IMG/VR virus record: IMGVR_UViG_3300031576_000029
Coordinates: 1-64,000 of that record
Origin: a virus
Lineage: Duplodnaviria > Heunggongvirae > Uroviricota > Caudoviricetes
Strand: one strand, 5' to 3'
Length of the DNA stretch: 64,000 bases
The notes beneath the pieces were generated by a model that worked only from the letters and a program-made list of their open reading frames with translations, did no database searches and was not told the origin of the DNA. A program made the position numbers and the translations under genes. How positions within the stretch are numbered: position 1 is the stretch's first letter; each line of letters starts with the position of its first letter. Positions 3,147 through 64,000 of this stretch are shown here, piece by piece.

Positions 3147-4736
3147 ATGAATTATTCAAATTTCTTATCCAAGAAGACAACTCCTCAAACACAACCTATT
3201 TTTGGTCGCAATGATCAAAAACTTAATAATGCCGGAGGATATGTATTTGATGTTCCAGATCAAGCATTACTCGAAAGATTTCTTACGATTGGTACAGAAA
3301 ATGGTACTTATTATGTAAGTGAACAAAAGCTCACTGTTGATAATGCTAAACGCATGATTGAGATTATTAAAAAAGATGGAAAGAATGTTGTTCAAACTCT
3401 CCTTAATTTTACAGAAAACAACAGAGCACTTAAACAAGATCCATCTATTTTTGTGTTAGCTTTAGCTTGCACTTATGGAGATGCCGATACAAAGAAATTT
3501 GCTTATAATGCCATTCATAAAGTATGTAGAACATCTACTCATTTATTTACTTTCTGTCAAAATGTTCAAGATTTAAGAGGATGGAGTAGAGGATTAAGAA
3601 CCGGAGTATCTCAGTTTTATTTATCTAAAAGTCCAAAAGATGTTGCTTATCAACTTGTTAAATATCGTCAACGAAATGGATGGACACATAGAGATGTTCT
3701 AAGACTAGCTCATACTAATCCTAGACTATCTACTGGATATTTGTATTTATTTCACTATGCAGTAAATGGTTCTTTAAAAATGAGCATGGATGTTCCTGAT
3801 ATTATTCATGCATTTGAAAATGCTCAAGATACCGATGATGTTAAAGAATTGGTAGATTTAATTAAAAGATACAATTTAACTTGGGAAATGGTTCCAACAG
3901 AAAAATTAAATAATAAAGAAGTTTTAGCTGCTCTTCTTGAAAATATGCCTATGACAGCTCTACTCAGAAATTTAAACAGATTTGCTATTTCAGGTCTGAC
4001 AAATGGACGTAGAGAATATCATACAAATTTTATTGTTGAAAGACTTAATGATTTGAATCTTCTTAAGAAATCTCATGTACATCCAATTACTCTTTTAAAT
4101 ACAATGAAAATCTATAATTCAGGTCATGGAATGAAGGGTAAACAAACTTGGACTCCCAATCAAGAAATTGTTGATGCTCTTAATAGTTCATTTGAACTAT
4201 CTTTTCAAGCTGTCGAACCTACAAATAAGTCTATTCTTATTGCGGCAGATGTCAGTGGTAGCATGTCTCATTCTAATGTTGGTGGAATGGCTTTAAGTCC
4301 TATCGAAATAGCAGCTGCTTTGCTTCTAACTACTTATAAAACTGAACCAAATGCAGAAGCTGTTTTGTTTGATACTGTTGTGTACCCAACAAAATTTGGC
4401 ACAAGAACAAGTTATGATGCAGTTCTCCAAACTGTTAAAAATATTTGTGGAGGAGGAACTGATTGTTCACTTCCATTCAAACATGCATTGAGCACTAGAA
4501 CTAAATATGATGCTATTATGACTTTAACAGATAGTGAAACATGGGCTGGAAGTCAACATCCTATTCAAGCATATGCAACGTACAAACAAACTGTTAATGT
4601 AAATACTAAAGGAATTGTTGTTGGAATGGTAGCTAATGAATGTACATTATTTCCTGCTGAAGATTTAGATGCTCTCAATATTGCTGGTATGGATAGTTCA
4701 ATACCCGAATTAATTCGTAATTTTATTAAGGATTGA
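3147..4736 (+). CDS. rsr: Ro60 (Rsr) orthologue: TROVE domain plus C-terminal vWA domain
   Basis: The N-terminal GGYVFDVPDQALLERFLTIGTENGTYYVSEQKL matches the TROVE signature. The C-terminal half has a vWA MIDAS motif, IAADVSGSMS. Length is 529 aa. Confidence 0.8.
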   Translation: MNYSNFLSKKTTPQTQPIFGRNDQKLNNAGGYVFDVPDQALLERFLTIGTENGTYYVSEQKLTVDNAKRMIEIIKKDGKNVVQTLLNFTENNRALKQDPSIFVLALACTYGDADTKKFAYNAIHKVCRTSTHLFTFCQNVQDLRGWSRGLRTGVSQFYLSKSPKDVAYQLVKYRQRNGWTHRDVLRLAHTNPRLSTGYLYLFHYAVNGSLKMSMDVPDIIHAFENAQDTDDVKELVDLIKRYNLTWEMVPTEKLNNKEVLAALLENMPMTALLRNLNRFAISGLTNGRREYHTNFIVERLNDLNLLKKSHVHPITLLNTMKIYNSGHGMKGKQTWTPNQEIVDALNSSFELSFQAVEPTNKSILIAADVSGSMSHSNVGGMALSPIEIAAALLLTTYKTEPNAEAVLFDTVVYPTKFGTRTSYDAVLQTVKNICGGGTDCSLPFKHALSTRTKYDAIMTLTDSETWAGSQHPIQAYATYKQTVNVNTKGIVVGMVANECTLFPAEDLDALNIAGMDSSIPELIRNFIKD

Positions 4737-19813: not shown

Positions 19814-20595
19814 GCATTCCTAAAGATATTACTTCTAAACATTTAACAATTGATGCCTGGGCGATATTAAGTGGTTACAGAGGAAGTATAGCTCACGGAA
19901 TGTATGTTCCAAAAGATAATCCAAATAGTATTGATGATAAAGATGTTATGACAGTATTTCTAGCTCCATTTGATTATTATACTACATTAGAAACTCATGG
20001 GTTATCTCGCGGAACGAAAGAAATTTTGGAAGGTGAATGGGATGTTGTTTGTTACGAATTTAAAAAATTTATTAGTTTATTAATTAAAGGTAATCCAAAT
20101 GTTATTTCTTTATTATGGCTAGAACCTAATTATTATATTAAGGTAACTGATATAGGACAATCTTTATTGATTAATAGAGATGTATTTTCATCAAAGCAAA
20201 TTTATCATTCCTTTTCTGGATATGCTTATTCGCAATTAAAAAAAATGACAAGCTTTTCTTTTGAAGGATATATGGGAGAAAAACGAAAAAAATTAGTAGA
20301 AAAATTTGGATATGACTGTAAAAATGCAGCTCATTTAATTCGTCTTTTACGTATGGCTATAGAATTTTTGCATGAAGGGGTATTTTTTGTTCAAAGACCA
20401 GATGCTACTCAATTGCTAGATATTAAATTAGGAATGTGGTCACTAGATCAAGTTAAAAAAGAAGCTGAAAATTTATTTAAAAGGACAGAAGAAGCTTATG
20501 ATAAATCTAAGCTACCTAATCAAGTTGATTTGAAAAAAATAAATGAATTAATGGTTGATTGTTTTAAAGAACATTTTTATGGAGAATTCATATGA
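19810..20595 (+). CDS. Pol-beta-superfamily nucleotidyltransferase
   Basis: GS...(15 aa)...DDKDV pattern near the N-terminus, 261 aa. Immediately upstream of the RNA ligase. Confidence 0.45.
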   Translation: MSIPKDITSKHLTIDAWAILSGYRGSIAHGMYVPKDNPNSIDDKDVMTVFLAPFDYYTTLETHGLSRGTKEILEGEWDVVCYEFKKFISLLIKGNPNVISLLWLEPNYYIKVTDIGQSLLINRDVFSSKQIYHSFSGYAYSQLKKMTSFSFEGYMGEKRKKLVEKFGYDCKNAAHLIRLLRMAIEFLHEGVFFVQRPDATQLLDIKLGMWSLDQVKKEAENLFKRTEEAYDKSKLPNQVDLKKINELMVDCFKEHFYGEFI

Positions 20596-21683
20596 GCGAC
20601 TTTCGGGTAGAAATTACTGATATCAAAGCAGTAAGACATCATCCCAATGCTGATAGATTAGATATTGTAAATATATTTGGTTGGGAAGTTGTAACATCTA
20701 AAGATACTTATAAAGTTGGTGATAAAGTATGTTATTTTCCTGTTGATTGTATTATAAGTGAAGATTTGGAAAAAATATTGTTTCCTCCTGATTCTAAAAT
20801 TAAATTAACTAATAGACGTATTAAAAGTATAAAATTGCGCGGACAAATAAGTCAAGGAATGATTGCTAATCCTAAACTTATAGGAGTGGATCATTTTAAT
20901 ATCGATAAAAATGTAGCTGAGTATTTAAAATGTATTAAATATGAACCACCAGAAATATCTAAACCAAGAGGAATGCAGGTTAGATCCAAAAAACAAGTCA
21001 ATCCTAATTTTCGTAAATATACTGATATTCAAAATTATAAATATTATAATGAAGTATTTCAACAAGGGGAACTTGTTGTTATTACTGAAAAATGTCACGG
21101 CACCTCGTGGCGTGGAGGTTGGGTGAAAAACGATGCTAATACTTTGTGGAAGAAAATAAGAAAATTATTTGGTCGGCTTCCTGAATGGGAATTTGTTTGG
21201 GGAAGTCATAATGTTCAAATTCAAAATAAATTATTTCATAAGGGCTTTTATGATGTAGATGTATATTCGAAAATGGTTAAACAATATGATTTAAAAAATC
21301 TTATTCCAAAAGGTTATGTTCTTTATGGAGAAATAGTTGGTTATAATATTCAAAAGAATTTCCATTATGATTGTGTTCCAGGGGAACATAAACTCTTTTT
21401 ATTTGATGTAAAATTTAATGACAAATGGTTAGATTATGAAGATTTTAAAATTACAGTAGATGCTTTAAAATTATCTAGAGTTCCTGAATTATTTACTGGT
21501 CCATATGATCCGGCTATTGTTGATAAACTTAGAAGCGGAACTAGTATATTAGATGAAAATACCATTAAAGAAGGTATTGTAATTAAAACAATTAAAGAAA
21601 CAGAATGTTCACTTGGAAGAAAAATATTAAAATTTATAAATGATGAATATTATTTATTAAAAGACGGAACGGATTATCATTAG
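20592..21683 (+). CDS. Rnl2-family RNA ligase fused to an N-terminal Myf/EMAP-type tRNA-binding domain
   Basis: N-terminal HPNADRLDIVNI matches the tRNA-binding-domain signature. Ligase motif I EKCHGTS (KxHG as in Rnl2), motif IV LFLFDV, motif V KEGIVIK. Confidence 0.6.
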   Translation: MSDFRVEITDIKAVRHHPNADRLDIVNIFGWEVVTSKDTYKVGDKVCYFPVDCIISEDLEKILFPPDSKIKLTNRRIKSIKLRGQISQGMIANPKLIGVDHFNIDKNVAEYLKCIKYEPPEISKPRGMQVRSKKQVNPNFRKYTDIQNYKYYNEVFQQGELVVITEKCHGTSWRGGWVKNDANTLWKKIRKLFGRLPEWEFVWGSHNVQIQNKLFHKGFYDVDVYSKMVKQYDLKNLIPKGYVLYGEIVGYNIQKNFHYDCVPGEHKLFLFDVKFNDKWLDYEDFKITVDALKLSRVPELFTGPYDPAIVDKLRSGTSILDENTIKEGIVIKTIKETECSLGRKILKFINDEYYLLKDGTDYH

Positions 21684-51330: not shown

Positions 51331-51801
51331 TTAAACCTGTTGTAAAGCCGTTGCGGCAAATGTTATTTTGCCTGTATGTCCTGTTCCAGCTAATGTTGTT
51401 GTAGTAAATTTAACTTGACCATTGCTATCTATTGTAAAGGTTATTTTACCATCCCCAACTGCTTCCCTGTCAAATTCCCAAGATGTTCCATTAAAAATGG
51501 TTTTAATTAATCCTGCCTCAAAAGCTGAAGTTGAATTAGTAGTTCTTGCTACTGTATATCGTATAAAAGCTCCGCGTACTAAACTATTAGGAAATTGAAG
51601 ATTTGATATTGTTACATTAGTACCGGGATTAAAGCTATCTATTGTAAATGATTGGGGAGCTATATCATTAGGACCAGCGGCAGTTGTTAAAGCAGTTTCA
51701 ACAGCTTGAGCAAACTCAACTATTGCAGCAGCCCAATTTGGAGATTCTCCAGATGTTGGAAACTCCAAGGAAGTCCCCTGTATGGTAATGGTTACAGACA
51801 T
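51331..51801 (-). CDS. Hypothetical virion protein
   Basis: 156 aa. Confidence 0.4.
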   Translation of the reverse strand: MSVTITIQGTSLEFPTSGESPNWAAAIVEFAQAVETALTTAAGPNDIAPQSFTIDSFNPGTNVTISNLQFPNSLVRGAFIRYTVARTTNSTSAFEAGLIKTIFNGTSWEFDREAVGDGKITFTIDSNGQVKFTTTTLAGTGHTGKITFAATALQQV

Positions 51802-52502
51802 TCGATTTTACATCCCTTTTTCCAATTATCTTTATCCCATAAGGGTTGTAAATTGGTATAATGACAGAGTTTGTAAATTTCTTCATCTGTTTTTGCTGAA
51901 GATAAAGGAATTATATGGTCAATATGCCATTTTCCTATATTATCCCAAGACATACCATTATGAAATTTTTGTTCTAAGTATTGTTTTAAAAATTGGGGTG
52001 TACAATATGTATATTCATCAAATTTATATATTTTTTTATTGTGCAAAAAACAACGTATTCTATTACGTAATTTTTTCTTCAAATTAAATAATATATCTTC
52101 ATGATATTTTTTATTTTCGTAATATCGAATTTTAGATCTGTATTTTTTTCGATATTCCTTTTTTCTAAGTCGAATTATATCATGATGACGATAATAAAAA
52201 GATCTACTAATAAGTTTTCTCTTTGTCCTATTATTCTCAGTCCATTTTTTATTATTTAATTTAATTTTCTCTATATAGAAAGGATTATGCTTATTTTTCA
52301 AGTACCATAAGTGTTTTTGTAATTTAATCTTCGTTAGATTTTTAAAGGTATACTGTTTTGTGCTTTTTTTACAACACTCCCGACAATAACCGCTTAATCC
52401 ATCTGCCTTGGACTTATCTATATAGTAATAAGACGCATTTAAGGCGTATTTGCATTTAGAACACGTTTTTATATAAGTAAAGTCTTGAATAGAAACAGAC
52501 AT
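51792..52502 (-). CDS. Free-standing HNH homing endonuclease with N-terminal Cys cluster
   Basis: GKWHIDHIIPLS...N.QPL...N. Inserted between structural genes. Confidence 0.6.
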   Translation of the reverse strand: MSVSIQDFTYIKTCSKCKYALNASYYYIDKSKADGLSGYCRECCKKSTKQYTFKNLTKIKLQKHLWYLKNKHNPFYIEKIKLNNKKWTENNRTKRKLISRSFYYRHHDIIRLRKKEYRKKYRSKIRYYENKKYHEDILFNLKKKLRNRIRCFLHNKKIYKFDEYTYCTPQFLKQYLEQKFHNGMSWDNIGKWHIDHIIPLSSAKTDEEIYKLCHYTNLQPLWDKDNWKKGCKIECL

Positions 52503-52608: not shown

Positions 52609-53832
52609 TTATGCTGAATTTACGATATCTTTAATTAACGTATTTTTTCCAGGTGCCATGCAGAATAGAGCTTGATCGCTATAAAGTCTCAATTCATATG
52701 CAGCGGAATTCTCCACATCTCGGAAGAATTCTTCACCTTGGCCAGGACGCTTAAAGGTCATATCAGATGAACCGACACGATACCAGTCTTCTAGTGATAG
52801 AAGATATGCATACCCTTCTTTTACGTAAATACTTGGGATGATTTCAATAGGTCCATTTTGTGAATGGAAAAGAAGTGATTCAGACCCAGTTTCTGCTACA
52901 GACGATTTATAACTAGAATCATATTGTCGAAGAGCAGCTTGATCTGATAACATATTAGCCCATGCTCTAGGATTACAGAAAGCAAGAACTCTGCCATCTA
53001 AACCCTTTTCAACGGCTCTTGAAGAAGCTAGATTAAGTTTAGTAAAACTCAGTGCAGCTGAACTCGCAGAGAACTCATTGCCTTTGAATAGGTTATATGT
53101 AGCAGTATCAATATTAAATAGCGTACCAGTTGAAGTGAGGATTTTATGAACTCCAGGGAATTCATTTCCAAACGCACCAGAATGCCAAATAACATCAGTT
53201 GCTATTGTTCCAGGAACTGCCGTTTGTAATTTGACAACTCGTGTATCCATATTAACAGACTTAACTACCGAAGTACCACGAGAAGTAGTACCAGCAGTAT
53301 CACGAATTTCAACAGGCATTCCTTCGGCTCCTGCCCAAATTCCAGGTCCCCATTCCGCAGTAGTAATGGTAAGATCTGCACCAGAAACAGAAGCAACTAC
53401 GCCATAACCCATTTGACCATAGAACATCTCAATCTCAAGCTTTTTAGCCATTGATCGGAGCATATTAGCTACTAAAAATTTAGTAGCATCCATAAAGGCT
53501 TTTGAACCACCAAGAGCAGCTCGACTGGCTGATGTATAGCCTAGAAGGGATCTCATAACCACTGGATTACCTTTTACTTGTGCATCCTTAATGACACCAG
53601 CTACTGGCGGATTAAGATTAAATGCGTCTTCATCTGAAGAAGCAAAAGTAACACCATGTTCCATACCAAGAATAACAGGCTGATGATAAAGATTACCAGG
53701 CTGTCTTTCTTTAGACATAAATTTAATTCTATTTAATAGTTTAACTCCATCGGGAATCAATTCAGCAAGCTTTTCAGCATAAGCTTCCTTGAAAAACCCA
53801 TTAAGAGTTTGTATTGAATTTGCAGTACTCAT
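52609..53832 (-). CDS. Putative major capsid protein
   Basis: 407 aa, downstream of a scaffold-like acidic protein. Assigned by position and size only. Confidence 0.4.
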   Translation of the reverse strand: MSTANSIQTLNGFFKEAYAEKLAELIPDGVKLLNRIKFMSKERQPGNLYHQPVILGMEHGVTFASSDEDAFNLNPPVAGVIKDAQVKGNPVVMRSLLGYTSASRAALGGSKAFMDATKFLVANMLRSMAKKLEIEMFYGQMGYGVVASVSGADLTITTAEWGPGIWAGAEGMPVEIRDTAGTTSRGTSVVKSVNMDTRVVKLQTAVPGTIATDVIWHSGAFGNEFPGVHKILTSTGTLFNIDTATYNLFKGNEFSASSAALSFTKLNLASSRAVEKGLDGRVLAFCNPRAWANMLSDQAALRQYDSSYKSSVAETGSESLLFHSQNGPIEIIPSIYVKEGYAYLLSLEDWYRVGSSDMTFKRPGQGEEFFRDVENSAAYELRLYSDQALFCMAPGKNTLIKDIVNSA

Positions 53833-57879: not shown

Positions 57880-58736
57880 TTATTTTGTTCCTAAACTAGT
57901 TGTTATTATTGGGCCTTTGATGGCTGTTTCATATCCTAATTGAATTCCATTAGCTATTTTTTCAGAATCAAAATCTAATGTATCATGCATAATATATGAT
58001 GGAGCATATACAGCTAATTCTATGAATTTTTTATCTTTTTCTTTGTTACATTCCAAACAAGTTTGAATATCATTAATGAATATTTCATGAGTTAAAATAT
58101 CAATCGTGCGTAATGCATTAGATATCCAATTACCAACTTTTCTTTCAGATTGCTCATATTCTAAAGGATTACATAAAATCACTATCATTTTATCAGTTCC
58201 ATCTAAAATAGCCTGTTTTAAAGGAGTTTGTTCTCTTACACCACCATCTACCCATTCATCATCGATAGGAGCCATAATACCAGGAATAGTAGCAGAAGCC
58301 TCGACAGAACTAATGAAGTCAATTTCACTATCATGCCCATATTTAATTTTCCCCGTAATAAGACTAACTTTACAAACATATATATCACATGTAGGAGATC
58401 CTACTATATTTTTTTCTAATATTTTTCTCAAAGGTTTTGTATTATAAAGACCCTTAGATTTAAGAATAAGACTTAACCAATTAAATGAAATAATATTTGT
58501 TTTTCCTTTAATATTTCTCCATACTTTTTCTAAACCAGATATTCCTTGATAAGCATATCCAACAGCATTTAATGCTCCAACGGAAGTTCCATAAATAGCA
58601 TCAGGATGAAAGCCAAATTCAGACAGATATTTCATAACACCAAATTGAAAAGAACCTTTAGCACCTAACCGCCCCCGGAAAGAACCAGAGCGGTCTTATC
58701 CAGGGGCAACTCCTTTAGTCTTTTTTTATTTTCCAT
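57880..58736 (-). pseudogene. Patatin-like phospholipase split by a 1-nt frameshift at the C5/G5 run near 58672
   Basis: The downstream frame carries GTSVGALNA (GxSxG) and WVDGGV (the Asp dyad). The true N-terminus MENKKRLKELPLDKTALVLSGGG (oxyanion GGG) sits in another frame, starts at 58736, and stops after GGG. Confidence 0.6.
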
Positions 58737-59392
58737 ATAAAACCTCTGCACTTATTAGTATTTGTAAAACAAATACAATTTCTTATAGATGTATAGGTAA
58801 CACCAACGGATTTAGCTGCTTCTTTATAACTTGGATAATCTTTAATAAATTTTTCATCTAAAGTGTATTTAGATATAGCAACTCGATTAAACGGAATTTG
58901 ACCACATTTAAATTCTGTTTTAGGACTTAATCTTTGATTATTTTTAATTTCAGTTGCCGAACTTCTATGTTCACCTTTAACAAAAGAACCTTTATTTCTT
59001 TTTGAAACACCTTTTAATCCCTTATTCCAAGGGATAGTTCCTTTTGGAACTCCTTCTCCTCCAGGAGTTAGATTTAATAAAGTTATTTTATTATTATAAA
59101 ATTTTATTAAAGATTTCTCAACAAATTCCCAATTATTTTTTGAAGTTACTTCTAATATTTTAATATTAGGTTTTAATCCTTTATCTAAAAGACTTTTTAA
59201 CCATGCTCTTTTATGTGTTTTAGTATTATTTTTAACTTGACATAAATGTTGAGTAAGTCTTTTTAATGGGTTCATACTCTTTCCAATATAACGAATCTCA
59301 TTAGATATAGGATCAATCAATGCATAAATAAAAATTGGATGAGTTTCCATTTTTATAGTATCTTCACCTGATAATATTAAAGCTATTTTCAT
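58715..59392 (-). CDS. GIY-YIG homing endonuclease
   Basis: IYALIDPISNEIRYIGKS. Confidence 0.6.
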   Translation of the reverse strand: MKIALILSGEDTIKMETHPIFIYALIDPISNEIRYIGKSMNPLKRLTQHLCQVKNNTKTHKRAWLKSLLDKGLKPNIKILEVTSKNNWEFVEKSLIKFYNNKITLLNLTPGGEGVPKGTIPWNKGLKGVSKRNKGSFVKGEHRSSATEIKNNQRLSPKTEFKCGQIPFNRVAISKYTLDEKFIKDYPSYKEAAKSVGVTYTSIRNCICFTNTNKCRGFIWKIKKD

Positions 59393-62224: not shown

Positions 62225-62235
62225 ATAGTTGTTAA
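62225..62235 (-). promoter_or_regulatory. Late motif copy 6
   Basis: Lies between the intein-containing gene and 61703..62212. Extended match TTAACAACTATGTA. Confidence 0.35.
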
Positions 62236-64000
62236 GTTGGACCTAATTGTTGAGCTAATACGGGCAAATTCTCGAAAGGTTCCGGTGGAGTAGGAACTTG
62301 TGGAACCGCAACATTTTGAACAGCTTCTCCACCAGTCATTTCTTCTCCAGGAGGTATTAAACCAGCTTCAGCTTCCATTAATCCCTCCATAGGACTGCCT
62401 TCTAAAGCGCCTTGAGAAGGTTGTCCTTGTGGAGGCTGTTGAATGGGTTGTTGACCAATTATTTGCAATAAAGAAGGATCTGTATTCTTAAGTAGGTCTA
62501 TGTGTTCTTGAATATGTGCTAAAGTATTTTCTACCAAAGTTGTATCTTTTCTTAGATCAGGATCAGCAAGTACAGTTTTGTGTTCATTAATATGTAAAGT
62601 GTGATTATCTAATGCAATTGCTTGAACTTGTTCACCTTCTAATAGTCTTTCATTTTCTGACTTAATTAGAAGCAATTCACTCATTTCGCCTTCAAATGTC
62701 ATATCAAGTCTACCTGTATTAATAACCTGAAAATATTGTTGAGGAGATTTTAATAATTTCATTTGTAATAATTGTTCAGCCATTTGAACCCTACCTGCAA
62801 CTGTATTATGTGTTACGGTAAAATCGCCTAAAAGAAAATGAGGTTCTTCTTGCAAGGTGAAACCGTAATATGTGCCAAAACCTTTACATTCAACATTAAT
62901 TCCATAATTCAATGGATTTCTTGCCTTAATTTTTTCATGACATTGTTTTCTTGGTATTTTTACGGGAATGTTTGATGTATTACCACCAATAGATATTTTA
63001 AAACAATCAGAATCTAAATCACCAACCAACTTACTTGAGTTAGATTTAAATTTTTTAACCGTCACACGAAATCCTAAAGACTTAGTTAAATAAACAACAT
63101 CTTTTACTAATCTTTCATTTTTTTGTGTAAATATAAATGTTTCGTCAATTCTATGTCCATCAGTATCAAGTAATCCTGCTAATAAATTTAATCTATCTTC
63201 ACGACTAGAAGTTAAATAGAAAAACGGAATGTGTTTATTATTAATTAACTCCATAGACCGTAATGCGTTTATAAATGGATTACGATCGGGAGCACCATAA
63301 GCCTCACCAGATGTAATATGATAATTTTTAGACTTATTAGGCTGACGATTATCTTCAATTCTAACTTTCATTCCAATATCATTAGCAAAATTAATCCAAA
63401 TATCTGACAATTCTTTATCCATGGTAGTTAAACATGTATTTTTACTAGTTCCATCACCGAGCCATGCGCCTAAAATATAGGGAGGAATTTCTAGAGATTT
63501 CTTCTCAAATTCTACCCCTGTTGTAAATCCCTGTAATAGTCTTCGATGTCTCATGGATAAATTGAGATAATCTTTAACAGTTATATCTATAATATCACCT
63601 TGTTTTATATCATATCGAAAATCATCTGAACAATATCGAAGTGTTAAAATATGACTTTCATTACATCCATATTTAATATTTCTGTGTGGATCTTTTGATG
63701 TAATTTCATACATCATTTCTTGTCCACTATTCACATTTTTAACAGTTCTTGGTCCCGAATCTGGTCCCATAACTAAATCATTAATTTTAATCTCTTGGAC
63801 CATTTTAATGGTTCCATCATACATTAAAACAGGTGTATCTTTAGCCAAACAACGTGATAATGGATTCCCGACATCTACAACTACACGATTTATTGCATTA
63901 ATATCCTCACCAACAAATTCTTTTAATAATGGTCTATTATTTCTTCCCACCAATGCTATAACTTTTGGAGTAGTAGCAAAATCCTTAAGTATTTGAATTA
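62232..64000 (-). CDS. Packaging or portal-like protein interrupted by an intein; N-terminus beyond the window edge
   Basis: The reading frame stays open to position 64000. Extein sequence lies on both sides of a Hint/LAGLIDADG element. Confidence 0.5.
   Translation of the reverse strand, partial: IQILKDFATTPKVIALVGRNNRPLLKEFVGEDINAINRVVVDVGNPLSRCLAKDTPVLMYDGTIKMVQEIKINDLVMGPDSGPRTVKNVNSGQEMMYEITSKDPHRNIKYGCNESHILTLRYCSDDFRYDIKQGDIIDITVKDYLNLSMRHRRLLQGFTTGVEFEKKSLEIPPYILGAWLGDGTSKNTCLTTMDKELSDIWINFANDIGMKVRIEDNRQPNKSKNYHITSGEAYGAPDRNPFINALRSMELINNKHIPFFYLTSSREDRLNLLAGLLDTDGHRIDETFIFTQKNERLVKDVVYLTKSLGFRVTVKKFKSNSSKLVGDLDSDCFKISIGGNTSNIPVKIPRKQCHEKIKARNPLNYGINVECKGFGTYYGFTLQEEPHFLLGDFTVTHNTVAGRVQMAEQLLQMKLLKSPQQYFQVINTGRLDMTFEGEMSELLLIKSENERLLEGEQVQAIALDNHTLHINEHKTVLADPDLRKDTTLVENTLAHIQEHIDLLKNTDPSLLQIIGQQPIQQPPQGQPSQGALEGSPMEGLMEAEAGLIPPGEEMTGGEAVQNVAVPQVPTPPEPFENLPVLAQQLGPT
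62805..63851 (-). mobile_element. Intein of 349 aa with a LAGLIDADG homing-endonuclease core
   Basis: N-terminal CLAKDTPV; LAGLIDADG boxes ILGAWLGDGTS and LLAGLLDTDG; C-terminal FTVTHN followed by Thr. Confidence 0.7.

What the first reader, a model, noticed from the sequence alone, without database searches (positions are those of the whole stretch)
57880..58736. Patatin-like phospholipase in the virion module, interrupted by a single-nucleotide frameshift in a homopolymer
The ORF at 57880-58635 has the lipase serine GTSVGALNA and the Asp dyad WVDGGV, but it lacks the N-terminal oxyanion motif.

That motif, MENKKRLKELPLDKTALVLSGGG, is encoded just upstream in a different frame. It starts at 58736 and terminates right after GGG, at the run CCGGGGG/CCCCC (about 58670-58680).

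This is either an assembly error in a homopolymer, a genuine pseudogene, or programmed or phase-variable frameshifting.

Its location among virion genes, next to a membrane-anchored S1 protease, suggests an ejected lipid-attacking enzyme used at entry or lysis.
Basis: seen in the sequence. Interest (0 to 1): 0.5.

Follow-up and report, generated by a model that had tools for sequence, protein, structure and literature searches.

The report
Homing-endonuclease cassette with 5-nt coding gap
A phage lipase gene is interrupted by five extra bases (not a one-base sequencing slip) that travel with a neighbouring selfish endonuclease gene and a matching RNA hairpin in several unrelated phages, an arrangement that looks like a miniature version of the famous T4 "gene 60" ribosome-bypass element.

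Summary
The split patatin-like phospholipase gene is real, but it is not a single-base homopolymer frameshift.

- **The break:** against 26 homologs with an invariant SGGGAKG spacing, the window carries 5 extra bases (TAGGT, 58667-58663) inside the oxyanion-hole codons. The sequence reads GGT-TAG-GT: a Gly codon, an in-frame stop, and a second GGT.
- **Recurrence:** the same interruption, at the same codon and always starting with a stop, occurs in four other metagenomic phages (5, 5, 5 and 8 nt). This rules out assembly error.
- **Link to a homing endonuclease:** all four members of one GIY-YIG/NUMOD1 lineage (here 58715-59392) sit directly upstream of an interrupted patatin. About 73 endonuclease-free alleles, and four alleles next to a sister endonuclease clade, are intact.
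- **Shared cassette features:** interrupted alleles are polyphyletic among intact ones. They share a new N-terminal extension and a 15-17 bp mRNA hairpin (58708-58670) abutting the take-off codon, with compensatory changes; uninterrupted alleles lack it, bar one distant one.

Best explanation: a mobile endonuclease cassette whose coding gap probably protects it from self-cleavage. The gap is probably decoded by a short +5 translational hop (GGT to GGT over the stop), which would give the exact consensus enzyme. Decoding is inferred, not shown. One allele, L003, lacks a matched landing codon.

The parts
58715..59392 (-). Free-standing GIY-YIG / NUMOD1 homing endonuclease gene (225 aa). Its last 22 nt overlap the start of the patatin gene.
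   Evidence: Pfam GIY-YIG 31.2 bits (cut-off 22.6) and NUMOD1 26.3 bits (cut-off 22.8). PHROG 'homing endonuclease'. Relative to the closest relative L002 it is a clean ~705-nt insertion. All 8 orthologs found sit directly upstream of a patatin gene.
58665..58736 (-). ORF1: patatin N-terminal fragment MENKKRLKELPLDKTALVLSGGG plus the TAG stop. It comprises a cassette-specific 13-residue N-terminal extension, strand beta1 and the first three Gly of the oxyanion-hole motif.
   Evidence: An extension of 9-13 residues occurs in all 5 interrupted alleles. It is absent from their nearest intact relatives, whose ATG aligns with the GAT/TGC/CAT/AAG/CGT codon here. For the ten codons KTAxVLSGGG among interrupted alleles, pS = 0.71 and pN = 0.16.
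58670..58708 (-). Conserved mRNA hairpin (15-17 bp). The 5' arm is the Pro-codon region of the N-terminal extension. The 3' arm is TCC GGG GGC G, ending on the first base of the take-off codon.
   Evidence: - RNAalifold on 5 alleles: 15 pairs, 6 with compensatory changes.
- 96% of cells paired versus ~50% in slid registers; only 2 of 500 shuffles reach the compensatory count.
- MFE is -20.2 to -24.0 kcal/mol in 5/5 interrupted alleles, versus -6.3 +/- 3.6 in 73 intact alleles and -1.3 to -6.0 in 4 HEG-adjacent intact alleles.
- Dinucleotide-preserving shuffles give z = -4.3 to -5.5.
- G-U pairs make the structure specific to the mRNA strand.
58668..58670 (-). Proposed take-off codon GGT (third Gly of SGGG).
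   Evidence: In all 5 interrupted alleles the codon before the stop is GGT or GGC.
58663..58667 (-). 5-nt coding gap TAGGT: in-frame stop TAG (58667-58665) overlapping the proposed landing codon GGT (58665-58663).
   Evidence: Its removal restores the invariant family spacing SGGGAKG. TAGGT is identical in WIN, L120 and L121, although synonymous sites between them are 64-71% different. The variants are TGAGC (L003) and an 8-nt insert (GGTTGAAT/TGAATGGA, placement ambiguous; L005).
57880..58662 (-). ORF2: the remainder of the patatin-like phospholipase, from resume codon GCT (AKGSFQFG...) to the stop. It contains the GTSVG nucleophile elbow and the DGG catalytic Asp.
   Evidence: ORF1 + ORF2 give a 283-aa product. 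PlpD (PDB 5fqu) aligns without gaps across beta1, the Gly loop and GxSxG.

Best explanation
The locus is a mobile homing-endonuclease cassette inserted at the 5' end of a phage virion-module patatin-like phospholipase gene. It has four parts:
1. A free-standing GIY-YIG/NUMOD1 endonuclease gene.
2. A new 5' end for the patatin gene (a 13-codon N-terminal extension replacing the ancestral ATG).
3. A 5-nt non-coding gap (TAGGT) placed in the codons of the oxyanion-hole motif GGGAKG, 30 nt downstream of the extension.
4. An mRNA hairpin, formed between the extension and the Gly codons, that ends on the take-off codon.

**Shown**
- The gap is real and recurrent.
- It is strictly linked to one endonuclease lineage.
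- It spread into, or recurs in, several distinct patatin lineages.
- It is accompanied by a co-varying hairpin.

**Inferred, step 1 (analogy with T4 MobA/gene 60)**
The gap disrupts the endonuclease's target in the most conserved 5' stretch of the gene, so the cassette-bearing genome is immune to its own enzyme.

**Inferred, step 2 (decoding)**
- Ribosomes translate ORF1 and pause with peptidyl-tRNA-Gly on GGT and the stop TAG in the A site.
- Refolding of the upstream hairpin behind the ribosome favours forward slippage of the mRNA.
- The tRNA re-pairs 5 nt downstream on the second GGT, and translation resumes at GCT.
- The result is a 283-aa enzyme with the exact family-consensus loop SGGGAKG.
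- Ribosomes that terminate instead make only a 23-aa peptide. The hop could therefore also keep the level of a membrane-damaging enzyme low.
For: **The gap is a 5-nt insert**
- 26 homologs have invariant spacing.
- Removing 5 nt (5, 5, 5 and 8 nt in the other four alleles) restores SGGGAKGS and a full-length Patatin match.
- PlpD (5fqu) aligns gap-free across this region.

**It is real**
- Five loci from different samples and assemblers are interrupted after the same Gly codon: ENA ERZ27247320, JGI 3300034152, Logan SRR29324588, NCBI GCA_964601535.1, and ENA ERZ23486232 with Logan SRR2657226.
- Each interruption begins with an in-frame stop, TAG three times and TGA twice.

**Link to the endonuclease (HEG)**
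- All 8 HEG orthologs abut a patatin gene.
- HEG clade A: 4/4 interrupted. HEG clade B: 0/4. Of 74 alleles with no clade-A HEG upstream, only L005 is interrupted (its upstream gene is unidentified). Fisher p = 3.5e-6.
- Relative to L002 the HEG is a clean ~705-nt insertion.

**Mobility**
- Interrupted alleles are polyphyletic, each nearest to intact genes at 62-82% identity.
- The HEGs form one lineage.
- The 5' ends are mosaic in three alleles.

**Selection**
- The ten cassette-internal codons have pS 0.71 versus pN 0.16.
- L005 versus intact L127 downstream of the gap gives dN/dS of about 0.13.
- TAGGT is identical in three lineages with saturated synonymous sites. The chance of this is roughly 1e-4 to 2e-3.
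- ORF1 stays open from an ATG or GTG start to the stop in 5/5 alleles.

**Hop-specific evidence**
- Take-off/landing codons are GGT/GGT, GGT/GGT and GGC/GGT, each pair readable by one tRNA. L005 has GGT/GGA.
- The hop is the only decoding route that gives the consensus loop length.
- The hairpin is found in all 5 interrupted alleles; only one distant intact allele (L077, -19.6 kcal/mol) comes close.
- An upstream hairpin next to the E site, with a stop in the A site, stimulates forward shifting and attenuates -1 shifting on 70S ribosomes (PMC6321510).
- The gene 60 cassette has the same logic: HEG, N-terminal extension, Gly take-off, UAG or UGA, matched landing codon and a 5' stem-loop driver (bioRxiv 10.1101/2022.08.31.505936 and 10.1101/2024.12.09.627546).
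- Synthetic +5/+6 stop-hops with matched codons are documented (Weiss 1987, cited in PMC5009743).
Against: - There is no protein, ribosome-profiling or enzymatic evidence. Decoding is inferred from sequence alone.
- L003 has no matched landing codon (GGT ... AGC; 2 of 3 positions could pair). L005's landing codon GGA differs at the wobble position and would normally be read by a different tRNA-Gly.
- Unstimulated stop-hops are inefficient, about 1% in E. coli. That figure comes from my memory of the Weiss work, not from a tool result.
- The geometry differs from gene 60. The hairpin abuts the take-off codon instead of lying 9 nt upstream. Most of its 3' arm is inside the ribosome at take-off, so a 5-nt slide would let only a few more pairs form.
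- No take-off (A-site) stem-loop was predicted.
- Conservation of the beta1 codons could partly reflect repeated recombination with intact target genes rather than translation.
- Each invasion could be recent, which would explain the intact downstream ORFs without any recoding.
- With its flanks, the window's 61-nt segment scores only z = -1.4 against dinucleotide shuffles.
- Only five instances are known. The fifth (L005) has an unidentified upstream gene.
Confidence: 0.55

Rival explanations
1. The gene is inactivated (pseudogene or scar). The endonuclease cassette invaded the patatin gene, and the 5-8 nt insert is a junction scar or escape mutation that destroys the cleavage site and the gene together. 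Only a 23-aa peptide, and perhaps an inactive C-terminal fragment, is made. The phage tolerates losing this accessory enzyme.
For: - An in-frame stop sits in the catalytic loop.
- Homing endonucleases are selfish and can be mildly deleterious.
- L003 lacks a matched landing codon.
- The cassette's N-terminus MENKK... resembles the native N-terminus of the subfamily-2 patatins that sit next to the sister HEG clade (L129, L124). The 5' end could therefore be donor-derived and the gap an illegitimate junction.
- Downstream ORFs could be intact simply because the invasions are recent.
Against: - A cassette lineage whose HEGs are only 58-64% identical still keeps four things: ORF1 open to exactly the same codon in 5/5 alleles, beta1-GGG amino acids conserved over saturated synonymous sites, the insert sequence TAGGT unchanged in three lineages, and a compensated hairpin built partly from the ORF1 codons.
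- None of these is expected for dead sequence.
- All five downstream ORFs (256-267 codons, the window's in a 32% GC genome) retain every catalytic motif.
Confidence: 0.25
2. The gap is decoded by a conventional frameshift at the stop, either -1 (giving SGGG-L-GAKG, two residues longer) or +2 (giving SGGG-GAKG, one residue longer), rather than by a hop.
For: - ORF2 is in the -1 (equivalently +2) frame in all five alleles.
- A stop codon in the A site plus an adjacent upstream structure is a known shift-prone context.
- The -1 product of the window still contains a GxGxxG pattern.
Against: - There is no X XXY YYZ slippery heptamer.
- After a -1 slip the Gly tRNA would face CGG, TGG or AGG (1 of 3 pairs). 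After a +2 slip it would face TTA or TTG (no pairs). After +5 it faces GGT (3 of 3 pairs).
- Upstream hairpins attenuate -1 shifting (PMC6321510).
- The products would carry 1-3 extra residues in a loop whose length is invariant in 26 homologs and in PlpD.
- The product sequence would differ between alleles (LG, LS, LNG).
Confidence: 0.1
3. The enzyme is made in two pieces. ORF1 terminates and the ribosome re-initiates on an overlapping start codon, so a 19-23 aa beta1 peptide and the C-terminal body assemble non-covalently, like endonuclease-split T4 gp39/gp60 or Aeh1 NrdA.
For: - In L003 and L005 a TTG in the ORF2 frame overlaps the TGA stop (TTGA), a classic coupling arrangement.
- The gene caller used that TTG for P0043.
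- Homing endonucleases are known to split genes whose products reassemble.
Against: - The three TAG-type alleles, including the window, have no start codon in the ORF2 frame near the stop (TTA or CTA). The next ATG is about 30 nt downstream, past the Gly loop and the helix start.
- Non-covalent complementation by a roughly 20-residue peptide across an active-site loop is unprecedented for this fold (my own knowledge).
Confidence: 0.06
4. It is a sequencing or assembly error, or phase-variable slippage, in the G5 homopolymer.
For: A G5 run (58676-58672) lies 5 nt upstream of the stop. Adding one G there would formally fuse the frames.
Against: - That fusion would give SGGRLGAKG, not the family sequence.
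- The same 251-aa ORF is on record from three sources (JGI, Logan, ENA).
- Four other loci from other samples are interrupted at the same codon with different bases. One of them has no homopolymer.
- The interruption co-occurs with the endonuclease and the hairpin.
Confidence: 0.02

Closest known systems
Phage T4 gene 60 / MobA mobile bypass cassette (Huang 1988; Bonocora 2011; Manning & Atkins 2022 preprint)
   Same: - A homing endonuclease is linked to a short non-coding insert inside highly conserved codons of the adjacent gene.
- The take-off codon is Gly and is immediately followed by UAG (sometimes UGA), with a matched Gly landing codon.
- The cassette supplies a new N-terminal extension.
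- An upstream stem-loop is implicated in forward movement.
- The element is found in polyphyletic host genes, so it is mobile.
- The insert is thought to protect the element from its own nuclease.
   Different: - The gap is 5 or 8 nt instead of 50 nt.
- The target is a patatin-like phospholipase, not topoisomerase II.
- The endonuclease is GIY-YIG/NUMOD1. In gene 60 it is MobA, although a few metagenomic gene 60 cassettes have GIY-YIG.
- The endonuclease sits upstream of the whole gene and does not split it.
- The hairpin abuts the take-off codon rather than lying 9 nt 5' of it.
- No take-off (A-site) stem-loop is seen, and no mini-SD is possible in 5 nt.
- There is no sequence homology with the gene 60 cassette.
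- Bypass is demonstrated experimentally for gene 60 and is only inferred here.
Synthetic 'stop-hops' (+5/+6) in E. coli (Weiss, Dunn, Atkins & Gesteland 1987)
   Same: Peptidyl-tRNA leaves a codon that is followed by a stop and re-pairs on a matching codon just beyond it. This includes +5 events that change frame.
   Different: Those were engineered, unstimulated and of low efficiency. According to the 2016 review no natural utilised case is known. Here the site is natural, conserved and flanked by a dedicated hairpin.
Magnusiomyces capitatus mitochondrial 'byp' elements
   Same: Short mobile inserts in coding regions are tolerated through translational bypass with matched or near-matched take-off and landing codons and a slow-to-decode A-site codon. 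Deviations from perfect matching are tolerated.
   Different: - The byps are 27-55 nt.
- They are GC-cluster-like elements without an endonuclease.
- They are mitochondrial and present in dozens of copies per genome.
prfB (RF2) +1 frameshift site and upstream-duplex stimulators
   Same: There is a stop codon in the A site, and a duplex (SD:anti-SD or a hairpin) directly 5' of the shift site pushes the ribosome forward.
   Different: prfB shifts +1 onto an overlapping codon and is autoregulatory. Here the frame relation requires +5 (or +2 or -1), and the P-site codon cannot re-pair at +1.
Free-standing GIY-YIG homing endonucleases of T-even phages (Seg proteins; I-TevI-like domain architecture)
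   Same: - The architecture is a GIY-YIG catalytic domain plus a NUMOD1 DNA-binding module.
- The gene is inserted between genes.
- Closely related phages show presence/absence polymorphism.
- Flanking sequence shows co-conversion-like mosaicism.
   Different: Self-immunity in those systems usually comes from point polymorphisms or from the insertion itself. It does not come from a frameshifting insert inside the neighbouring ORF.

Membership tests
Patatin-like phospholipase (Pfam PF01734) | Significant full-length match to the family profile | tested here: met
   The joined ORF1+ORF2 product scores 79 bits (cut-off 27.7), covering profile positions 1-191 of 191. There are 230 homologs with E <= 1e-3. 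The PDB hit is PlpD 5fqu, E = 1.3e-9.
Patatin-like phospholipase (Pfam PF01734) | Oxyanion-hole motif G-G-G-x-[KR]-G after strand beta1 | tested here: inconclusive
   The motif is encoded but split by the 5-nt gap: SGGG* | AKG. It is intact only in the hop product. ORF2 on its own lacks it.
Patatin-like phospholipase (Pfam PF01734) | Ser-Asp catalytic dyad: G-x-S-x-G nucleophile elbow and D-G-[AG] | tested here: met
   GTSVG and DGG are present. S52, G50, G54, D164 and G165 are invariant across 27 sequences.
Patatin-like phospholipase (Pfam PF01734) | Lipid acyl-hydrolase activity | not testable with these tools
   This needs expression of the repaired and native genes followed by a lipase assay.
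GIY-YIG homing endonuclease | GIY-YIG catalytic domain plus a DNA-binding module, with conserved catalytic residues | tested here: met
   GIY-YIG scores 31.2 bits (cut-off 22.6) and NUMOD1 26.3 bits (cut-off 22.8). Tyr, Arg, His, Glu and Asn positions are invariant in 7 orthologs (Y23, Y35, G37, R45, H49, E92, N107). Assigning these to catalytic roles rests on my knowledge of I-TevI.
GIY-YIG homing endonuclease | Presence/absence polymorphism at one genomic site among related genomes (a signature of mobility) | tested here: met
   It is a clean ~705-nt insertion relative to L002, which is from the same sample and shows 65% patatin identity. Its host genes are polyphyletic.
GIY-YIG homing endonuclease | Site-specific cleavage of the endonuclease-free allele, with resistance of its own allele | not testable with these tools
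   This requires an in vitro cleavage assay on L002-type and window-type sites.
Endonuclease-linked translational bypass cassette (T4 gene 60 type) | Non-coding insert within conserved codons, strictly linked to a homing endonuclease | tested here: met
   HEG clade A is 4/4 interrupted; of 74 alleles with no clade-A HEG upstream only L005 is interrupted; Fisher p = 3.5e-6. Removing the insert restores the consensus.
Endonuclease-linked translational bypass cassette (T4 gene 60 type) | Stop (or hungry) codon immediately 3' of the take-off codon | tested here: met
   5/5 alleles: TAG three times and TGA twice, directly after GGT or GGC.
Endonuclease-linked translational bypass cassette (T4 gene 60 type) | Matched take-off and landing codons readable by one tRNA | tested here: inconclusive
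   Matched in three alleles: WIN GGT/GGT, L120 GGT/GGT, L121 GGC/GGT. L005 has GGT/GGA, a third-position mismatch. L003 has GGT/AGC, not matched.
Endonuclease-linked translational bypass cassette (T4 gene 60 type) | Take-off stem-loop with the take-off codon in its 5' side (A-site stem-loop) | tested here: not met
   RNAalifold on 130 nt finds only the upstream hairpin. The take-off codon lies at the 3' foot of that hairpin. The locus is therefore an analogue of the gene 60 cassette, not a member.
Endonuclease-linked translational bypass cassette (T4 gene 60 type) | One polypeptide made from the two ORFs; the gap protects against the endonuclease | not testable with these tools
   This needs mass spectrometry of the junction peptide and nuclease assays.
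Canonical -1 programmed frameshift | X XXY YYZ slippery heptamer plus a downstream stimulatory structure | tested here: not met
   There is no heptamer at or before the stop in any of the five alleles. No downstream structure is predicted.

The most novel reading that the evidence does not exclude
This would be the first natural, evolutionarily maintained short 'stop-hop': a +5 (or +8) translational bypass over a stop codon between matched Gly codons, driven by a refolding hairpin that abuts the take-off codon. It would have arisen independently of T4 gene 60, as the self-immunity device of a GIY-YIG homing-endonuclease cassette that spreads among patatin genes of phages probably infecting Flavobacteriia.
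Probability: 0.45. Interest if true: 0.85.

Novelty: new variant of a known kind. Interest (0 to 1): 0.75.

Why it matters
Programmed translational bypassing is known from essentially one bacterial/phage system (T4 gene 60 and its homologs) and from one yeast mitochondrial lineage. The main recoding review says shorter natural counterparts have 'long been presumed' but never found.

If this cassette is decoded by a hop, it would matter in four ways:
- It would be a second, independently evolved endonuclease-plus-bypass element. That would imply that 'insert a coding gap to escape your own nuclease' is a general strategy for homing elements.
- It would be a minimal system of 5 nt plus one hairpin. 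That would make it much easier than the 50-nt gene 60 gap for dissecting take-off, mRNA sliding and landing.
- It would warn annotators that 'frameshifted pseudogenes' next to homing endonucleases may be functional.
- The comparative signature used here can be searched for in other genes: a stop straight after a codon that recurs a few bases downstream, a cassette-specific hairpin, and an adjacent homing endonuclease.

Even if the gene is dead, the strict linkage of a specific 5-nt insert and hairpin to one endonuclease lineage is an unusual record of how such elements invade and mark their targets.

Tried and rejected
**Searches that found nothing useful**
- blastn of the 4-kb region against GenBank phages: no match.
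- tblastn of the patatin against GenBank phages: only hits of 31% identity or less.
- Single-protein scan of IMG/VR: nothing.
- Degenerate DNA patterns for 5-nt and 8-nt interrupted sites: 0 hits in IMG/VR. In 185k species genomes the only hit was L003's own contig.
- HEG against GenBank phages: only a partial GIY-YIG match, in Flavobacterium phage FPSV-D18.
- Rfam: no family at the junction.
- tRNA scan of the window: none, so there is no phage suppressor or Gly tRNA here.

**False leads**
- P0030/L004 looked N-terminally truncated but is intact. The start was miscalled.
- P0083/L007 is cut by a contig end.

**L005's upstream partial ORF (86 aa)**
It could not be identified. There was no Pfam hit at E <= 10, no match to a profile of the seven HEGs, and no homolog in the 5.8-billion-protein search. 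The endonuclease link of the fifth case is therefore unproven.

**Ideas rejected**
- Stop-codon reassignment: the frames differ, and reading TAG as sense reaches a TGA 11 codons later.
- RNA polymerase slippage in G5: L005 has no homopolymer run.
- A backward -4 hop onto GGG: it would give a loop 3 residues too long.
- The hairpin as an intrinsic terminator for the endonuclease gene: it has no U-tract, and it is absent from clade-B endonuclease loci.

**Correction of my own recollection**
The T4 endonuclease of the gene 60 cassette is MobA, not MobE.

**Statistical cautions**
- My first shuffle test used mononucleotide shuffles. With dinucleotide-preserving shuffles the 61-nt window segment scores only z = -1.4. 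The exact 41-nt hairpins score z = -4.3 to -5.5.
- dS between most allele pairs is saturated, so gene-wide dN/dS is informative only for L005 versus L127.
Full report
**1. What is in the sequence**

On the minus strand a 23-codon ORF starts at 58736 and reads MENKKRLKELPLDKTALVLSGGG. It stops at TAG 58667-58665. The patatin body continues in the -1 frame (…LGAKGSFQFGVMKYL…) down to 57880. The ATG-delimited ORF 57880-58635 has the GTSVG nucleophile elbow and the DGG aspartate. The joined protein matches Pfam Patatin over the whole profile (79 bits, positions 1-191 of 191).

It overlaps the patatin start by 22 nt.

**2. It is not a one-base homopolymer frameshift**

A search of 5.8 billion proteins gave 230 homologs. 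In an alignment of 26 of them the segment LSGG-GAKGS has no length variation at all. The window DNA is TCC GGG GGC GGT TAG GT GCT AAA GGT. Deleting five bases (TAGGT, 58667-58663) gives SGGGAKG, the exact consensus.

The G5 run lies upstream of the stop. A +1 G there would give SGGRLGAKG instead. The closest solved structure, P. aeruginosa PlpD (5fqu), aligns without gaps from beta1 through the Gly loop to GxSxG. The consensus spacing is therefore the structurally validated one.

**3. It is not an artefact: the same interruption recurs**

The window's 251-aa ORF is on record from JGI, Logan and ENA assemblies. More importantly, four other loci from other samples are interrupted after the same Gly codon, and the insert always starts with an in-frame stop:

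| Locus | Sequence at the junction | Insert |
|---|---|---|
| L120 | GGC GGT TAG GT\|GCA | 5 nt |
| L121 | GGT GGC TAG GT\|GCA | 5 nt |
| L003 | GGA GGT TGA GC\|GCA | 5 nt |
| L005/L006 | GGT GGT TGA AT GGA\|GCT | 8 nt |

For L005 the 8-nt insert is confirmed by nucleotide alignment with its 82%-identical intact relative L127, which reads GGT GGT GGA GCT.

A systematic screen of about 110 loci from a metagenome scan and an IMG/VR scan found no other interrupted allele. Two apparent truncations were a miscalled start and a contig end.

**4. The interruption travels with one homing-endonuclease lineage**

I searched with the endonuclease itself and looked up the contexts of its orthologs. All eight orthologs (42-64% identity) lie directly upstream of a patatin gene.

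- The four closest (58-64% identity: window, L120, L121, L003) all have the interruption.
- The four in the sister clade sit next to uninterrupted patatins of a second subfamily.
- None of the ~100 intact loci has this endonuclease upstream.
- Fisher's exact test for clade-A endonuclease versus interruption gives p = 3.5e-6.

Relative to L002, the closest relative from the same sample, the window is collinear on both sides. The endonuclease plus a 13-codon N-terminal extension form a clean ~705-nt insertion (59402-58698) where L002 has 12 nt.

All five interrupted alleles have this kind of N-terminal extension (ME[NE]K…P…K). All have lost the ancestral ATG, which aligns with GAT, TGC, CAT, AAG or CGT.

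The upstream gene of the fifth allele (L005) is cut by the contig end and could not be identified. It is nonetheless foreign relative to L127.

**5. The cassette is or was mobile**

In a neighbour-joining tree of 99 family members the interrupted genes are polyphyletic, and each is nearest to intact genes:
- the window with P0002 (64%);
- L003 with P0007/P0011 (66%);
- L121 with L014 (62%);
- L005 with P0032 (82%).

The endonucleases, by contrast, form one lineage. Informative-site tests show that the 5' ~35-45 codons after the extension are enriched for 'cassette-like' bases relative to the rest of the gene in the window, L003 and L005 (p about 0.006, 0.03 and 1e-4). This is not so in L121. 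The signal is modest and consistent with old co-conversion tracts.

**6. The cassette-internal sequence is under selection**

- The ten codons KTAxVLSGGG lie between two cassette-specific features, the extension and the gap. Among the five alleles their synonymous sites are saturated (pS 0.71) while amino acids are conserved (pN 0.16).
- ORF1 is open from its start codon to exactly the same position in 5/5 alleles.
- TAGGT is identical in three lineages whose neutral sites are 64-71% different. The chance of this is roughly 1e-4 to 2e-3.
- Downstream, L005 versus intact L127 gives dN/dS of about 0.13.

These patterns are not expected for a dead gene. However, recurrent recombination with intact targets could contribute to them.

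**7. A hairpin specific to interrupted alleles**

RNAalifold on the five junction regions predicts a 15-pair hairpin (window 58708-58670). Its 3' arm is TCC GGG GGC G, ending on the first base of the take-off codon. Its 5' arm is the Pro-codon region of the N-terminal extension. Six pairs show compensatory changes.

- In the named register 96% of cells pair, against about 50% when the partner is slid by 1-3 columns. Only 2 of 500 shuffles reach the compensatory count.
- The 41-nt segment folds at -20.2 to -24.0 kcal/mol in all five interrupted alleles. In 73 distinct intact alleles the mean is -6.3 +/- 3.6 and the minimum -19.6. In the four endonuclease-adjacent but uninterrupted alleles it is -1.3 to -6.0.
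- Dinucleotide-preserving shuffles give z = -4.3 to -5.5, with 0 of 200 folding as well.
- A longer 61-nt window segment with G-rich flanks gives only z = -1.4.
- G-U pairs make the structure specific to the mRNA strand.

The hairpin therefore tracks the interruption, not merely the endonuclease.

**8. How it most likely works**

Only one decoding route yields the consensus enzyme in every allele. That route is to leave the Gly codon that precedes the stop and resume 5 nt (8 nt in L005) downstream.

In three alleles the triplet just before the resume codon is GGT, cognate to the tRNA on the take-off GGT or GGC. In L005 it is GGA. In L003 it is AGC, where 2 of 3 positions could pair.

The alternatives give poorer re-pairing and a loop 1-3 residues too long:
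- -1 shift: the tRNA would face CGG, TGG or AGG.
- +2 shift: the tRNA would face TTA or TTG.

Published work supports this logic:
- Synthetic +5/+6 'stop-hops' between matched codons occur in E. coli (Weiss 1987, via PMC5009743).
- A stable hairpin juxtaposed to the E site, with a stop codon in the A site, stimulates forward shifting and attenuates -1 shifting on 70S ribosomes (PMC6321510).
- In T4 gene 60, pairing of mRNA emerging behind the ribosome is proposed to drive forward bypassing (10.1101/2024.12.09.627546).

By analogy with MobA/gene 60, where the 50-nt insert protects the element's own DNA from nicking, I infer that the 5-nt gap disrupts the endonuclease's target in the most conserved 5' stretch of the patatin gene. 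Both the hop and the immunity role are inferences. Nothing here measures translation or cleavage.

**9. Weak points**

- L003's landing triplet is unmatched.
- L003 and L005 have a TTG overlapping the TGA stop (TTGA), so re-initiation is conceivable for those two. It is not conceivable for the three TAG alleles.
- Most of the hairpin's 3' arm would be inside the ribosome at take-off, so its mechanical contribution to a 5-nt slide is uncertain.
- No A-site stem-loop is predicted.
- Only five instances exist, and no cultured phage carries the cassette.
- A 'selfish scar in a dispensable gene' remains a serious rival. I give it 0.25.

**10. Comparison and novelty**

The closest known system is the T4 gene 60/MobA cassette, described in 2022 as still unique.

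The two share an endonuclease linkage, a Gly take-off codon, a UAG or UGA stop, a matched landing codon, an N-terminal extension and an upstream stem-loop.

They differ in gap length (5-8 nt versus 50 nt), target gene, endonuclease position and family, and hairpin geometry. The present locus has no take-off stem-loop and no sequence homology with gene 60. It is therefore an analogue, not a member: a new variant of a known kind.

**11. Context**

The window is a phage of about 79 kb with 32% GC.
- A replication module lies on the plus strand.
- The structural module on the minus strand includes the portal, this locus, a Trypsin_2 protease, the major head protein at 52609-53832, and tail fibres.

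The 'virion module' placement therefore holds. In L127/L005 the orthologous gene lies among baseplate genes. The contig of L003 is binned with a Flavobacteriaceae MAG, which suggests the host group.

Noticed in passing
window 62232-63953 (-): The ORF syntenic with the P22/SU10-type portal gene of L002 contains Hom_end_hint (E = 2e-20), Hom_end and LAGLIDADG_3 domains. This is an intein with a LAGLIDADG homing endonuclease inside the portal gene. PHROG hits to 'terminase large subunit' families probably reflect inteins in those families.
   Followed up: no
window 51792-52502 (-): A 236-aa ORF directly downstream of the major head protein gene matches PHROG 'endonuclease VII' (E = 2e-19). It may be a third free-standing nuclease or homing element in the structural module.
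   Followed up: no
window 3147-4736 (+): The phage encodes a Ro60/TROVE + vWA protein (E = 1e-45 and 3e-44). An RNA ligase (20592-21683) lies in the same early/replication strand, and a subtilase S8 gene is at 1558-2307. No tRNA or Y-RNA-like gene was looked for beyond the ARAGORN scan, which found none.
   Followed up: no
L122 1607-4060 (and L123): In this locus the clade-B endonuclease lies between two different patatin genes, of 289 aa and 317 aa. The N-termini of the subfamily-2 patatins next to clade-B endonucleases (MENKKIRAICLSGGG in L129, MEKNRKIKRALIVSGGG in L124) resemble the cassette's N-terminal extension. This hints that the extension was carried over from such a gene.
   Followed up: partly
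L003 6605-7513 and 8107-8376: Two further GIY-YIG ORFs lie a few kb downstream of the cassette in the same contig. One is 34-36% identical to the cassette endonuclease.
   Followed up: no
L077, L081, L087 (distant intact patatins, ~26-30% identity): These uninterrupted, endonuclease-free genes also fold the 41 nt ending at the third Gly codon into a fairly strong hairpin (-12.8 to -19.6 kcal/mol). They are the only intact alleles approaching the cassette values. It is not known whether this is a translational control element of that subgroup.
   Followed up: no
L127 1329-7203 and L005 1308-2454: In this phage type the patatin gene sits inside the baseplate module: Phage_base_V, PAAR, SIS-domain protein, patatin, MptE-like protein, gp25-like. 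This supports a virion-associated role. The SIS and MptE-like neighbours are unusual for a baseplate cluster.
   Followed up: no
window 57880-58736: The repaired patatin has no PHROGs v4 family at E <= 1e-3, although at least 230 relatives exist in metagenomes. This phage patatin family appears to be missing from that phage-protein library.
   Followed up: no
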